Of a stretch of DNA of 40,772 bases, positions 36,665 through 39,136 are shown piece after piece. The notes under the pieces are model-generated. The model was not told the DNA's origin. It searched no databases and was given only the letters and a program-made list of their open reading frames with translations. The stretch lies in IMG/VR virus record IMGVR_UViG_3300028456_000002, positions 1 to 40,772 of that record; one strand, given 5' to 3'. Source of the stretch: a virus. Its lineage: Duplodnaviria; Heunggongvirae; Uroviricota; Caudoviricetes. The stretch's first letter is position 1. Each line of letters begins with the position of its first letter. The position numbers and the translations under genes are program-made.

Positions 36665-39136
36665 ATGAGTAAAGTCTTTATTTGCGCCGCCATTCCGGAC
36701 GAACAGGCAATTAAGGAAGAAGGTGCAGTTGCTGTAGCCACTGCCATCGAAGCCGGTGACGAACGCCGCGCCCGTGCCAAATTTATCTGGCAATTCCTGG
36801 AGCAATATCCGGCTGCTCAGGACTGCGCTTATAAATTTCTTGTCTGCGAGGATAAACCCGGCATGCCCCGCCCTGCCATCGACACCTGGGATACCGAATA
36901 TATGCAGGAAAACCGCTGGGATGAGGAATCCGCTTCCTTTGTTCCGGTCGAACCAGAATCCGCTCCGATGAACGTCAATTTTGACAAGCTGTCCCTTGAA
37001 GTACAGAACGCGGTCCTGGTTAAGTTCGGTACATGTGAAAACATCACCGTTGATATGGCGATTGACGCGCAGGAATTACTGCAGGAAGACGTTGCTACCT
37101 TTGACGGGCATATCGTTGAAGCACTGATAAAAACGCCTGAAATTAACGCTATGTATCCGGAACGCAAACTGTTCGCTATCGGTTGGGTTAAACACAAATG
37201 TAATCCGGGTGCCAAATGGCCCGAAATTCAGGCTGAATTACGTAACTGGAAAAAACGGCAGGACGCAGAGCGCAAAGAGACTGGAAAATATACTTCTGTT
37301 GTTGATCTCGCCCGCGCCAGAGTCAACCGACAGCACACTGAAAACTCAGCAGCAAAAATCAACCCTGTCACTGCTGCCATTCGTCGCGAATACAAGCAGA
37401 CATGGAAAACACTGGATGAAGAACTGGCCTACGCTCTCTGGCCTGGTGATATTGATGCCGGAAACATTGACGGCAGCATCCATCGCTGGGCAAAAAATGA
37501 AGTTATCGACAAAGATCGCGAAGACTGGAAGCGTATTTCCGCATCAATGCGCAAACAACCTGATGCCGTTCGCTACGACCGTCAGACTATTTTTGGCCTT
37601 GTCCGTGAACGTCCCATCGACATTCATAAAGATCCTGTGGCGCTGAACAAATACATCACCGAATACCTGACTACAAAGGGCGTGTTTGAAGATGAAGGAA
37701 CAAATCAGAGCACAACTAATACTCTCCCGTCGCCAGTACCAGAAGCTGATGCAGTGGAAACGGCAATTCCGGACAACGAAAAAACCGAATGCAAAGTGGA
37801 AGACGAACCATCTGTAGAGCGTGAGGGGCCGTTCTACTTCCTTTTCACCGATAAGGATGGCGAAAAATATGGTCGTGCAAACAAACTTTCTGGTCTGAAT
37901 AAGGCGCTGGCTGCAGGGGCTACTGAAATCACGAAAGAAGAATATTTTGCCCGCAAAAACGGCACATACTCAGGTTCACAACAAAATACTGGTGCATCTG
38001 ACACGATCGCACAACCAGAGCCGGTAAAAGTTACCGCTGACGAAGTAAACAGAATTATGCAGGCAGCCAATATCAGCCAGCCTGACGCCGATGAACTTCT
38101 TGCAGTATCACGTGGTGAATTTGTTGCAGGGATTAGCGATCCGAATGATCCGAAATGGGTGAAGGGGATTGAAACCCGCGATTCTGTGAACCAGAACCAG
38201 CAAGAAACGGAACAGAACGACCAGAAAGCGGAACAAAACAGCCCAAATACGCAACAAAACGAGCCAGAAACGAAACAACCTGAACCAGTAGTGCAACAGG
38301 AACCGGAAAAGACCTGCACCGCCTGCGGTCAGAGCGGTGGCGGCAACTGCCCTGATTGTGGTGCGGTGATGGGTGACGCAACATACCAGGAAATATTCGA
38401 TGGAGAGAATCAGCCTGAAGTTCAGGAAAATGATCCGGAGGAAATGGAAGGCACTGCGCATCAGCACAAGGAGAACACTGGCGGCAATCAGCATCATGCC
38501 AGCGATAGTGAAACTGGCGAGGCGTCAGATCCCTTAATTAAGGCGAACGGTCATTATAATCTCACATCCACCAGCAGAGCGGGAATTCATCTGATGATCG
38601 ACCTTGAAACCATGGGAAAAAATCCCGATGCCCCGATTATCTCAATAGGCGCAATATTTTTCGATCCACAAACCGGAGATATGGGACCGGAATTTAGCAA
38701 GACCATCGATCTGGATACTGCTGGCGGAGTCATTGATCGTGACGTCATTAAATGGTGGCTGAAGCAATCACGTGAAGCGCAGTCTGCCATTATGACCGAT
38801 GAAATCCCGTTAGATGATGCACTACTGCAATTGCGGGAATTTATCGCCGAAAACTCCGGTGAGTTTTTTGTTCAGGTCTGGGGAAATGGAGCCAACTTCG
38901 ACAACACGATTTTGCGCCGTTCATACGAACGGCAGGGGATCCCCTGCCCGTGGCGTTACTACAACGATCGCGATGTACGCACAATCGTTGAGCTGGGGAA
39001 AGCCATAGACTTCGATGCCAGAACTGCTATCCCATTCGAAGGTGAGCGCCATAATGCACTTGATGACGCTCGTTACCAGGCAAAATACGTTTCAGCTATC
39101 TGGCAAAAACTGATCCCGAGTCAGGCTGATTTTTAA
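36665..39136 (+). CDS. Large exonuclease: YdfE/RecE-like N-terminal and linker regions fused to a C-terminal DnaQ-like 3'-5' exonuclease domain
   Basis: 823 aa. C-terminus has DEDDh motifs ([31 protein letters not shown]). Central Gln/Glu/Asn-rich linker and zinc-ribbon [16 protein letters not shown]. Confidence 0.75.
   Translation: [823 protein letters not shown]

What the first reader, a model, noticed from the sequence alone, without database searches (positions are those of the whole stretch)
36665..39136. 823-aa exonuclease combining a RecE/YdfE-like linker with a DnaQ-like domain
The C-terminal 200 aa carry clear DEDDh 3'-5' exonuclease motifs. The central region (...[31 protein letters not shown]...[21 protein letters not shown]...) resembles the linker of Rac RecE as I recall it, whereas RecE ends in a different nuclease fold. 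The gene occupies the exo/bet/gam position. A domain swap in a recombination exonuclease would be mechanistically interesting.
Basis: partly seen in the sequence, partly recalled or inferred. Interest (0 to 1): 0.55.

Follow-up and report, generated by a model that had tools for sequence, protein, structure and literature searches.

The report
RecE-scaffold prophage exonuclease with DnaQ-like domain

Summary
ORF 36665-39136(+) encodes 823 aa. Residues 642-813 are a PF16473 DEDDh 3'-5' exonuclease domain (E 8e-66) with all five catalytic residues. Residues 262-625 are homologous to Rac RecE 278-591 (63% identity over 474-625, including a 4-Cys knuckle). Homology stops at residue 625, just before RecE's PD-(D/E)XK nuclease. 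Residues 1-256 are 84% identical to K-12 YdfE, the IS2-truncated stump of the Qin ortholog.

The gene is not rare. Full-length copies occur in 3511 of 5426 complete E. coli genomes, annotated "exonuclease" or "3'-5' exoribonuclease", and phrog_2082 matches end to end.

Among 50%-identity representatives, two N-terminal head types combine with at least three C-terminal types (DEDDh, PD-(D/E)XK, and one with no recognised nuclease).

In the four DEDDh-type loci examined there is no recT. The window prophage has no recognisable annealase and 15 Chi sites (1.5 expected). This matches the "Tritos" nuclease-only, Chi-rich class of Zheng et al. 2025, and Tritos carries the ortholog.

Most likely it is a 3'-5' DNA-end exonuclease of the early-left operon that uses the RecE-type scaffold. 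Its biological role is inferred, not shown. Novelty is low to moderate.

The parts
36665..39136 (+). Complete CDS, 823 aa: RecE-family scaffold joined to a DnaQ/DexA-type 3'-5' exonuclease
   Evidence: ORF list. phrog_2082 matches 1-823/823. The protein is 93-96% identical to E. coli proteins named exonuclease or 3'-5' exoribonuclease. Overall dN/dS is 0.22 against three orthologs.
36665..37432 (+). aa 1-256: YdfE-type N-terminal head (alpha/beta domain about 1-100 plus helical domain about 105-202)
   Evidence: 84% identical to K-12 YdfE 1-256. Window 35745-37431 is collinear with Qin up to the IS2 junction. AF2 pLDDT is mostly 75-92 for aa 1-200. dN/dS is 0.12-0.19. Homologs at 24-28% identity occur in ZF40 gp07 and the BUCT708 protein.
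37385..37699 (+). aa 241-345: helical core module found in most long family members mapped, including Rac RecE (about 278-351)
   Evidence: BLASTP to RecE (24% identity). The NF007259 match starts at aa 217. The N2 module is detected in most long representatives, whatever their head or nuclease type. pLDDT is 79-90. dN/dS is 0.07-0.14.
37820..37975 (+). aa 386-437: small folded beta-hairpin/helix module between disordered linkers
   Evidence: AF2 strands 387-407 and helices 408-431, pLDDT about 78-81. dN/dS is 0.04-0.07. Present in many N1-type relatives.
38075..38539 (+). aa 471-625: RecE-like central region (conserved [21 protein letters not shown] motif and acidic/Q-rich spacers)
   Evidence: 96/152 identical to RecE 454-591. 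75.5% DNA identity to recE over window 38089-38538. Alignment with RecE, P0193 and 689R5.
38315..38359 (+). aa 551-565: CxxC-x7-CxxC four-cysteine knuckle (putative zinc ribbon)
   Evidence: CTAC at 551 and CPDC at 562. Conserved in RecE, P0193 and 689R5. dN/dS is 0.11-0.19 for aa 549-575. Metal binding is not tested.
38540..38587 (+). aa 626-641: junction segment immediately after the RecE-homology breakpoint; contains a Chi octamer on the minus strand (38568-38575)
   Evidence: Sequences diverge from RecE after ...DPLI. Chi at gene nt 1904 is conserved in 5 of 5 DEDDh-type genes and absent from 2 recE genes.
38588..39103 (+). aa 642-813: DEDDh 3'-5' exonuclease domain (Rv2179c-like/DexA family)
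   Evidence: PF16473 E 8.3e-66, profile positions 2-177 of 177. D646, E648, D746, H796 and D801 are invariant with T4 DexA and epsilon34 gp34. PDB sequence hit to 8KEL/8KEN, the T4 DexA structures (E 8e-6). dN/dS is 0.09-0.24.
36196..36584 (+). Upstream operon genes dicB (36196-36384) and ydfD-like DUF1482 (36381-36584)
   Evidence: phrog_1251 and phrog_1092 matches. Same order (dicB, DUF1482, exonuclease, xis, int) in E. coli O145 and K-12 Qin.
39206..40772 (+). Downstream excisionase (39206-39457) and integrase (39477-40772)
   Evidence: phrog_539 excisionase and phrog_1 integrase. Window 39613-40772 is 93% identical to K-12 intQ.
34066..34778 (.). Immunity region: Cro/DicC-like gene (34066-34320, minus strand) and DicA-like repressor (34371-34778, plus strand) heading the operon that ends in the exonuclease
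   Evidence: PHROG transcriptional regulator and repressor matches. Collinear with Qin dicC-dicA.

Best explanation
The gene encodes a functional, modular early protein of a Qin/Tritos-type lambdoid prophage. Its first 625 residues are the non-catalytic scaffold of the RecE (exonuclease VIII) family. That scaffold consists of a variable head (here the YdfE type), a helical core shared across most of the family, a small folded module, a conserved motif and a four-cysteine knuckle, all strung on disordered acidic linkers.

At residue 625/626 the RecE PD-(D/E)XK 5'-3' nuclease is replaced by a DnaQ-like DEDDh domain of the T4 DexA / Rv2179c family.

Shown here: the homologies, the breakpoint, intact catalytic residues, purifying selection on every folded module, combinatorial reassortment of heads and nuclease tails across the family, absence of a RecT or other recognisable annealase next to the DEDDh-type genes examined, and strong Chi enrichment in this prophage.

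Inferred: the protein is made when the DicA-type repressor is lifted, together with DicB, YdfD, Xis and Int. It acts as a metal-dependent 3'-5' exonuclease on 3' ends of linear DNA. The scaffold gives it the same still-unknown targeting or partner contact that it gives RecE.

My favoured role is 3'-end trimming or blunting of phage DNA ends in a phage that has no annealase and no anti-RecBCD protein. Such a phage appears to rely on host RecBCD and Chi to make packageable concatemers. That last step is a hypothesis.
For: Domain and family matches. Alignment to RecE and YdfE. RecE's own domains are PF06630 and PF12684. The breakpoint lies at aa 625 / nt 38539.

Catalytic residues are conserved with DexA and epsilon34 gp34. 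dN/dS is 0.04-0.24 in folded parts and about 0.7-1.0 in linkers. AF2 domain boundaries agree with this.

Module mapping of 50%-identity representatives shows YdfE-head+DEDDh (P0184, P0186), RecE-head+DEDDh (P0193, P0203, P0311), YdfE-head+PDDEXK (P0194, P0253, P0283), RecE-head+PDDEXK, and YdfE-head with an unassigned tail.

DEDDh-type loci have no recT, while Rac-type loci pair recE with recT. No annealase was found among the early genes, and there is no RecT hit in the window.

A stand-alone homolog of the DEDDh domain (56% identity) sits between SSB and Abc2, next to Erf, in the epsilon34 recombination module. PMC12315714 regards it as a legitimate Rec-module member.

The window has 15 Chi sites against 1.5 expected. 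Eight minus-strand sites lie on the lysis/Q/nin side of the terminase genes. The Tritos class (nuclease only, Chi-rich) is in Table 1 of PMC12315714, and Tritos carries the ortholog. The RecE N-terminal region is described as of unknown function but as enhancing linear-linear recombination (PMC11611040).
Against: No experiment exists on this protein. Substrate (DNA or RNA), polarity and partners are inferred from family membership; PF16473 is named for an exoribonuclease.

PMC12315714 notes that DnaQ-like 3'-5' exonucleases 'usually inhibit homologous recombination', and it does not count DnaQ-type genes near int as Rec-module genes unless they are contiguous with other Rec genes.

The recT-absence correlation rests on only six loci. 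Annealase absence was tested with PHROG profiles on the early region and with RecT tblastn only. No promoter or terminator analysis was decisive.
Confidence: 0.55

Rival explanations
1. It is a prophage-encoded defence or superinfection-exclusion nuclease of the 'HREX' kind. A DexA-like 3'-5' exonuclease would spare unmodified host DNA and digest modified (for example 5hmC) DNA of invading T-even phages.
For: The domain is homologous to T4 DexA (PDB 8KEL/8KEN, E 8e-6; 25% identity). PMC12315337 reports that a stand-alone E. coli DexA homolog, EcD, degrades T4 DNA and protects cells. It also reports that Escherichia supplies 38% of bacterial DexA homologs, which may include this very abundant family. 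Prophages commonly carry defence genes.
Against: EcD is a different, stand-alone protein: its cloning primers give MIDTET... at the start and a different C-terminus. The two residues the paper links to 5hmC recognition are not conserved here: DexA W152 aligns with Y766 and D169 with A780. The gene lies at the end of the repressor-controlled early-left operon with dicB, xis and int, which is not an obvious lysogen-expressed position. This rival does not explain why a 625-residue RecE-type scaffold is attached.
Confidence: 0.15
2. It is primarily an exoribonuclease, as the Pfam family name suggests. It would trim or degrade RNA 3' ends (host or phage transcripts, sRNAs, or RNA-DNA hybrids) during lytic development.
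For: The best Pfam match is '3'-5' exoribonuclease Rv2179c-like domain', and PGAP names many orthologs 3'-5' exoribonuclease. The gene shares an operon with an sRNA-producing region: DicF in Qin, and a divergent DicF-like stretch here.
Against: The closest experimentally studied phage relative, T4 DexA, is a DNA exonuclease. Stand-alone homologs sit inside DNA recombination modules. The attached scaffold is shared with a DNA exonuclease, RecE.
Confidence: 0.1
3. It serves host takeover or counter-defence. It would degrade host DNA for nucleotide salvage, as in DexA's scavenging role, or destroy nucleic-acid components of host immunity.
For: DexA has a documented host-DNA scavenging role. The gene is co-expressed with host-directed functions (DicB division inhibitor, YdfD lysis protein).
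Against: Temperate lambdoid phages are not known to depend on host DNA breakdown. Nothing in the sequence points to a specific immune target. The link to the RecE scaffold and the Chi-rich, annealase-less genome fits DNA-end metabolism better.
Confidence: 0.1
4. It is a non-functional relic: a fortuitous fusion that persists in defective prophages without doing anything.
For: Many E. coli copies reside in cryptic prophages. The K-12 copy is destroyed by IS2, and a frameshifted copy exists in vB_EcoM-606R7.
Against: The 823-aa frame is intact here and in thousands of genomes. It is also present in phages Tritos, Evi, HannyBb and PhiR42_1, which are deposited as phage genome records. dN/dS is 0.22 overall and below 0.25 in each folded module. 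All catalytic residues are kept.
Confidence: 0.03

Closest known systems
Rac prophage RecE (exodeoxyribonuclease VIII, K-12 b1350, 866 aa)
   Same: Homologous over aa 262-625 (RecE 278-591), including the [21 protein letters not shown] motif and the CxxC...CxxC knuckle. [quoted passage not shown]
   Different: The N-terminal head is different: RecE has PF06630, this protein has the YdfE type. The catalytic domain is different: RecE has PF12684 PD-(D/E)XK with 5'-3' polarity, this protein has DEDDh with expected 3'-5' polarity. There is no adjacent recT. The protein scores 262 bits against the 1269-bit cutoff of the RecE equivalog model.
Escherichia phage Tritos TRITO_27 and the 'Tritos' Rec-module type of Zheng et al. 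2025 (PMC12315714)
   Same: Ortholog: 88% nucleotide and 85% amino-acid identity, same 823-aa length, same ydfD-exo-xis neighbourhood. The published class is nuclease-only with no annealase, SSB or anti-RecBCD, and Chi-rich. The window fits it with 15 Chi sites.
   Different: In the text I could read, the paper does not describe the protein's chimeric RecE-scaffold/DnaQ architecture. The record annotates it as 'exonuclease VIII, ds DNA exonuclease'.
K-12 YdfE (Qin prophage pseudogene b1577)
   Same: aa 1-256 are 84% identical, and the flanking genes dicB, ydfD and intQ are collinear.
   Different: The K-12 gene is cut after codon 256 by IS2. The equivalent of window 37432-39612 is missing: the rest of the gene, xis and the 5' end of int.
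T4 DexA (PDB 8KEL/8KEN) and the E. coli DexA homolog EcD ('HREX', PMC12153337)
   Same: Same DEDDh family, with catalytic residues aligned.
   Different: Only 25-28% identical. Those proteins are stand-alone, about 200-227 aa. DexA W152 and D169 (5hmC recognition) correspond to Y766 and A780 here. EcD has different termini.
Salmonella phage epsilon34 gp34 (stand-alone '3'-5' exoribonuclease' in the Erf-SSB-gp34-Abc2 recombination module)
   Same: 56% identical to aa 642-817. Also located in a lambdoid early-left operon.
   Different: A 182-aa single-domain protein with annealase, SSB and anti-RecBCD partners. It has no RecE-type scaffold.
'RecE-2' proteins (Pectobacterium phage ZF40 gp07; the BUCT708 710-aa protein)
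   Same: They share the N-terminal scaffold (aa 3-340, 24-28% identity) and the position between repressor and xis-int.
   Different: Their C-terminal halves have no Pfam match. PMC12315714 describes 'RecE-2' proteins as lacking a nuclease domain; equating ZF40 gp07 with that class is my inference. They are followed by a Gp157-family gene.

Membership tests
RecE / exodeoxyribonuclease VIII (NCBIfam NF007259 equivalog) | Whole-protein score above the curated cutoff | tested here: not met
   261.7 bits against a cutoff of 1269. Only model positions 241-603 of 877 match.
RecE / exodeoxyribonuclease VIII | C-terminal PD-(D/E)XK nuclease domain (PF12684; RecE 606-866 crystal domain) | tested here: not met
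   No PF12684 hit. aa 626-823 do not align with RecE 592-866. K-12 RecE scores E 4e-28 for PF12684.
RecE / exodeoxyribonuclease VIII | N-terminal PF06630 (Exonuc_VIII) head | tested here: not met
   No PF06630 hit here, whereas RecE scores E 6e-98.
RecE / exodeoxyribonuclease VIII | Central non-catalytic region (RecE about 278-591) | tested here: met
   BLASTP E 1e-57 and 63% identity over aa 474-625.
RecE / exodeoxyribonuclease VIII | Adjacent RecT annealase partner | tested here: not met
   The next gene is xis. No RecT by tblastn in the window. The same holds in O145, 606R7 and 689R5.
DEDDh (DnaQ-like) exonucleases, Pfam PF16473 Rv2179c-like/DexA | Domain score above the gathering threshold | tested here: met
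   221.5 bits against 27, covering profile positions 2-177 of 177.
DEDDh (DnaQ-like) exonucleases, Pfam PF16473 Rv2179c-like/DexA | Catalytic D, E, D, H, D residues in the three Exo motifs | tested here: met
   D646 and E648, D746, H796 and D801 sit in invariant columns with T4 DexA, epsilon34 gp34 and the 1720a-02 protein.
DEDDh (DnaQ-like) exonucleases, Pfam PF16473 Rv2179c-like/DexA | Metal-dependent 3'-5' exonuclease activity | not testable with these tools
   Requires a biochemical assay.
HREX (DexA/EcD 5hmC-recognising exonucleases, PMC12153337) | Trp and Asp equivalent to DexA W152 and D169 | tested here: not met
   The MAFFT alignment places Y766 and A780 at these positions. This rests on a four-sequence alignment and is not structure-based.
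HREX (DexA/EcD 5hmC-recognising exonucleases, PMC12153337) | Protection against T4 and selective digestion of modified DNA | not testable with these tools
   Requires plaque and nuclease assays.
phrog_2082 / architecture PF27430 + PF16473 + PF27432 (E. coli prophage 'exonuclease') | End-to-end match to the family profile and the same domain string as database members | tested here: met
   phrog_2082 matches 1-823/823 at 1788 bits. All of the top 120 homologs carry PF27430.1, PF16473.12 and PF27432.1 and are 93-96% identical. The two PF274xx models are absent from the local Pfam copy, so their names could not be read.
'Tritos' nuclease-only Rec-module class (PMC12315714, Table 1) | Nuclease present; annealase, SSB and anti-RecBCD absent | tested here: met
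   PHROG scans of 30 ORFs across 15.8-40.8 kb found none of these, and RecT tblastn was negative. Small ORFs of unknown function remain, so absence is only as good as the profiles.
'Tritos' nuclease-only Rec-module class (PMC12315714, Table 1) | Abundant, orientation-biased Chi sites | tested here: met
   15 Chi sites against 1.54 expected, and no shuffle in 100 reached 15. Eleven are on the minus strand and four on the plus strand.

The most novel reading that the evidence does not exclude
The RecE-family N-terminal scaffold may be a general delivery platform that docks interchangeable catalytic tails (5'-3' PD-(D/E)XK, 3'-5' DEDDh, or none) onto DNA ends or a host partner. On this reading the DEDDh version is an adaptation of Chi-rich, annealase-less lambdoid phages. 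It would prepare 3' ends so that host RecBCD can load and reach Chi, making it a phage-encoded helper of RecBCD rather than a competitor or inhibitor of it. The conserved Chi octamer 29 nt past the swap junction might mark how the modules were exchanged.
Probability: 0.15. Interest if true: 0.6.

Novelty: new member of a known kind. Interest (0 to 1): 0.33.

Why it matters
RecE's 600-residue N-terminal region has had no assigned function for decades, although it changes what RecET recombineering can do (linear-linear recombination). The same scaffold is kept under selection with three different C-terminal tails, and with or without an annealase neighbour. This suggests the scaffold has an autonomous, portable function, and it offers natural chimeras with which to dissect it.

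The protein is also one of the commonest uncharacterised prophage nucleases in E. coli, including EHEC lineages. It is the only recombination-type gene in a class of Chi-rich lambdoid phages proposed to depend on RecBCD.

None of this makes the window's copy unusual. It is an ordinary member of that family.

Tried and rejected

(2) Identifying EcD with this protein. I rejected this because the primer-derived termini differ. I could not retrieve the EcD sequence to measure its identity to aa 642-823.

(3) Looking for a phage record with YdfE-head plus PDDEXK tail, to test whether recT tracks the nuclease type. There was no full-length match in the phage collection.

(4) Two literature searches gave nothing useful. 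'full-length RecE' matched 'receptor', and 'ydfE' plus 'exonuclease' gave nothing relevant. 'Rv2179c' plus 'prophage' or 'phage' gave nothing on this protein.

(5) The promoter and terminator scan around the gene was uninformative: 4 promoter-like sites against 9.6 expected.

(6) Rfam did not detect DicF upstream, only a sub-threshold STnc100 hit.

(7) I considered the ORF being an assembly or frameshift fusion of two genes. I rejected this because identical-length ORFs occur in thousands of independent genomes.
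Full report
**Observation**

The window has a single long ORF at 36665-39136 on the plus strand. It is 823 aa, starts at ATG and has GAGG 11 nt upstream.

- Pfam places a complete Rv2179c-like DEDDh 3'-5' exonuclease domain at aa 642-813 (PF16473, E 8.3e-66, 221.5 bits against a cutoff of 27).
- The five catalytic residues are D646, E648, D746, H796 and D801. They sit in invariant columns when the domain is aligned with T4 DexA, Salmonella phage epsilon34 gp34 and a phage 1720a-02 protein.
- The only solved structures found by sequence are 8KEL and 8KEN (E 8e-6), which are the T4 DexA structures described in PMC12153337.

**RecE and YdfE resemblance**

- The NCBIfam exonuclease VIII model matches aa 217-626 (model positions 241-603 of 877). 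The score is 262 bits against a 1269-bit cutoff.
- BLASTP against K-12 RecE aligns aa 262-625 with RecE 278-591 (E 1e-57).
- Identity is 96/152 (63%) over aa 474-625 and about 24% over aa 262-336.
- At DNA level only window 38089-38538 is similar to recE (75.5%).
- Homology ends abruptly after ...[10 protein letters not shown] (aa 625, nt 38539). RecE continues into its PD-(D/E)XK nuclease (PF12684, aa 615-850). This protein continues with a 16-residue junction ([16 protein letters not shown]) and then the DEDDh domain.
- RecE's N-terminal PF06630 head is absent here.
- Instead, aa 1-256 are 84% identical to K-12 YdfE. Window 35745-37431 is collinear with Qin from the dicF region to the IS2 junction inside ydfE, and window 39613-40772 matches intQ.
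- K-12 YdfE is therefore the stump of the Qin ortholog. The rest of the gene, xis and the start of int were lost with the IS2 event.

**Anatomy**

AlphaFold2 on aa 1-470 used a 25-sequence alignment spanning E. coli and Klebsiella/Salmonella relatives. It gives confident structure for aa 1-200 (an alpha/beta domain followed by a helical domain), for aa 241-344 (helical) and for aa 386-435 (two beta hairpins plus helices). Confidence is low for 203-238, 345-385 and 438-470.

Pairwise dN/dS against orthologs from E. coli O145, phage Tritos and phage Evi agrees with these boundaries.

| Segment | dN/dS |
|---|---|
| Folded modules, the 471-505 motif, the four-cysteine knuckle (C551/C554/C562/C565) and the DEDDh domain | 0.04-0.24 |
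| Linkers 346-385, 438-470 and 576-640 | about 0.7-1.0 where there are enough changes to estimate |

Counts per segment are small. The 'linker' is thus really several selected modules joined by disordered acidic/Q-rich spacers.

No informative fold relative was found for aa 1-470.

**Abundance and annotation**

- Megablast finds at least 80% coverage of the gene in 3511 of 5426 complete E. coli genomes, with a median of two matching places per genome that has any. These are annotated 'exonuclease', '3'-5' exonuclease' or '3'-5' exoribonuclease domain-containing protein'.
- The best matches are only about 95-96% identical.
- phrog_2082 matches end to end.
- The protein search returned 7747 hits. 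The top 120 are all E. coli, 93-96% identical, and carry precomputed PF27430 + PF16473 + PF27432.
- Seventeen phage records carry a full-length copy, including Tritos, Evi, mEp460_ev081, HannyBb, PhiR42_1 and the PPompW prophages of EHEC. Several of them label it 'exodeoxyribonuclease VIII'.

**Module reassortment**

I searched aa 1-640 against 1.84 billion 50%-identity representatives. Only 247 proteins scored at E<=1e-3. I then mapped my own module queries onto the long hits with phmmer. The combinations found were:

| N-terminal head | C-terminal tail | Examples |
|---|---|---|
| YdfE-type | DEDDh | P0184, P0186; P0185 lacks the central region |
| RecE-type | DEDDh | P0193, P0203, P0311 |
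| YdfE-type | PD-(D/E)XK | P0194, P0253, P0283 |
| RecE-type | PD-(D/E)XK | canonical RecE |
| YdfE-type | matches neither nuclease | P0189, P0192, P0196, P0198 and others |

- The last group includes Pectobacterium phage ZF40 gp07 and a 710-aa protein of phage BUCT708. They share aa 3-340 at 24-28% identity, have no Pfam hit in the C-terminal half, occupy the same map position and are followed by a Gp157-family gene.
- They probably correspond to the 'RecE-2' proteins that Zheng et al. 2025 describe as lacking a nuclease domain (PMC12315714). That equation is my inference.
- The helical core (aa about 241-345) is detected in most of the long members mapped, whatever their head or tail type.

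**Context**

The gene order is cII-like, Cro/DicC-like, DicA-like repressor, small unknown genes, dicB, ydfD-like, this gene, xis, int. The same order is found in E. coli O145 next to rspB, which is the Qin site.

- PHROG scans of the early-left, replication, nin, lysis and packaging genes found O/P-like replication proteins, HNH endonucleases, RusA, Q, a DNA methyltransferase and terminase.
- They found no annealase, SSB or anti-RecBCD protein. RecT tblastn was negative.
- Three other DEDDh-type loci (O145, vB_EcoM-606R7 and vB_EcoS-689R5; the last has a RecE-type head) also run dicB-ydfD-exo-xis-int without recT.
- K-12 Rac and vB_EcoS-666R9, by contrast, have recE followed by recT.

The window contains 15 Chi octamers against 1.54 expected, and no shuffle in 100 reached 15. 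Eleven are on the minus strand. Eight of those lie at 22.2-30.4 kb, on the lysis/Q/nin side of the terminase genes (TerS 19674-20168, TerL 18196-19674). By my reasoning about Chi polarity, that is the orientation RecBCD would recognise when entering from a cos or pac cut on that side.

This matches the pattern reported in PMC12315714, whose Table 1 lists a 'Tritos' type: nuclease present, with no annealase, SSB or anti-RecBCD, and Chi-rich (four phages). Tritos TRITO_27 is the ortholog of this gene.

The same paper reports DnaQ-like nucleases as legitimate Rec-module members in phages such as epsilon34. It is cautious about DnaQ-type genes near int, and it notes that such nucleases usually inhibit recombination. 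I confirmed that epsilon34 gp34 (56% identical to aa 642-817) lies between the SSB and Abc2 genes, next to Erf.

**Mechanism**

- **Shown:** an intact, selected, multi-module protein with a complete DEDDh active site on a RecE-family scaffold, encoded at the end of a repressor-controlled early operon in a Chi-rich prophage with no recognisable annealase.
- **Inferred from family knowledge:** metal-dependent 3'-5' exonuclease activity, as in DexA and Rv2179c.
- **Inferred from context:** action on DNA 3' ends during lytic growth, with the scaffold supplying the same unknown targeting that it supplies in RecE. The RecE N-terminal region is 'of unknown function' but enhances linear-linear recombination (PMC11611040).
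- **My favoured role:** trimming or blunting 3' tails so that host RecBCD-Chi recombination can proceed. This is a hypothesis with modest probability.

Rivals are an HREX-like defence nuclease, an RNase role, host DNA scavenging or counter-defence, and a relic.

- **HREX-like defence:** PMC12153337 shows a stand-alone E. coli DexA homolog protecting against T4. However, the W152 and D169 equivalents here are Y766 and A780, and EcD is a different protein.
- **RNase role:** supported mainly by the Pfam family name.
- **Relic:** contradicted by selection and conservation.

**Verdict**

The protein is a routine member of a very widespread, already catalogued family. Its phage class has been published, but its function has not been tested.

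It is not a RecE by the family's defining features, because the nuclease, the head, the score and the RecT partner all fail. It is a bona fide PF16473 DEDDh exonuclease.

The added value here is the exact breakpoint, the domain map, the evidence for combinatorial reassortment, the apparent loss of the annealase partner, and the link to Chi-rich genomes.

Noticed in passing
window 19056-30377 and 38568-38575: There are 15 Chi octamers (GCTGGTGG) in 40.8 kb against 1.5 expected; 11 are on the minus strand. Eight minus-strand sites cluster at 22.2-30.4 kb, on the lysis/Q/nin side of the terminase genes. This is the 'right-end clustered, active-orientation' pattern described for lambdoid phages that lack their own recombination module (PMC12315714).
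   Followed up: partly
window 38568-38575 (minus strand): One Chi octamer lies 29 nt downstream of the point where homology to recE ends, inside the 16-codon junction before the DEDDh domain. It is conserved at the same position in all five DEDDh-type genes checked and is absent from two recE genes. It could be coincidence (the codons encode S-T-S) or a trace of how the modules were joined.
   Followed up: partly
window 27914-28088 (minus strand): Rfam finds a full-length sok antitoxin RNA (RF01794, 112 bits against a gathering score of 59), which implies a hok/sok-type toxin-antitoxin locus in the nin region of the prophage.
   Followed up: no
window 22735-22888 (minus strand): Two phage-borne tRNA genes, tRNA-Gly(TCC) and tRNA-Thr(TGT), lie between the lysis genes and the DNA methyltransferase and Q region.
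   Followed up: no
window about 35960-36228 (plus strand): The stretch collinear with K-12 dicF is divergent and is not detected by the Rfam DicF model. Only a sub-threshold STnc100 hit appears (36005-36228, 34 bits against 47). Window 35996-36180 is also 80% identical to the kilR-kilS intergenic region of Rac. A variant sRNA may be encoded here.
   Followed up: partly
L002 (K-12 Qin) 5079-7709 compared with window 37432-39612: K-12 Qin lacks the equivalent of window 37432-39612: the 3' two-thirds of the exonuclease gene, xis and the 5' end of int. An IS2 remnant sits at the junction. This explains both the ydfE and the intQ pseudogenes in a single event.
   Followed up: yes
L004 3974-6106 (phage vB_SmeS_BUCT708): This record is deposited as a Stenotrophomonas phage. 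The closest homologs of its RecE-2-like protein with a source name attached (75-95% identity) are from Klebsiella and Salmonella, and no hit is labelled Stenotrophomonas. The host attribution or the origin of this region looks odd.
   Followed up: no
L005 3974-6651 and L004 3974-6672: The scaffold-only ('RecE-2'-like) proteins are each followed immediately by a Sipho_Gp157-family gene, annotated 'Mu Gam-like end protection' in ZF40. This suggests a conserved two-gene unit distinct from both recET and the DEDDh form.
   Followed up: partly
window 35085-35702 (plus strand) and 35364-35684 (minus strand): A 205-aa plus-strand ORF matches phrog_35040 end to end. It overlaps a 106-aa minus-strand ORF with a membrane-protein-like sequence and no PHROG hit. 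In the O145 relative a minus-strand gene is annotated in this area. Which of the two ORFs is real is unresolved.
   Followed up: no
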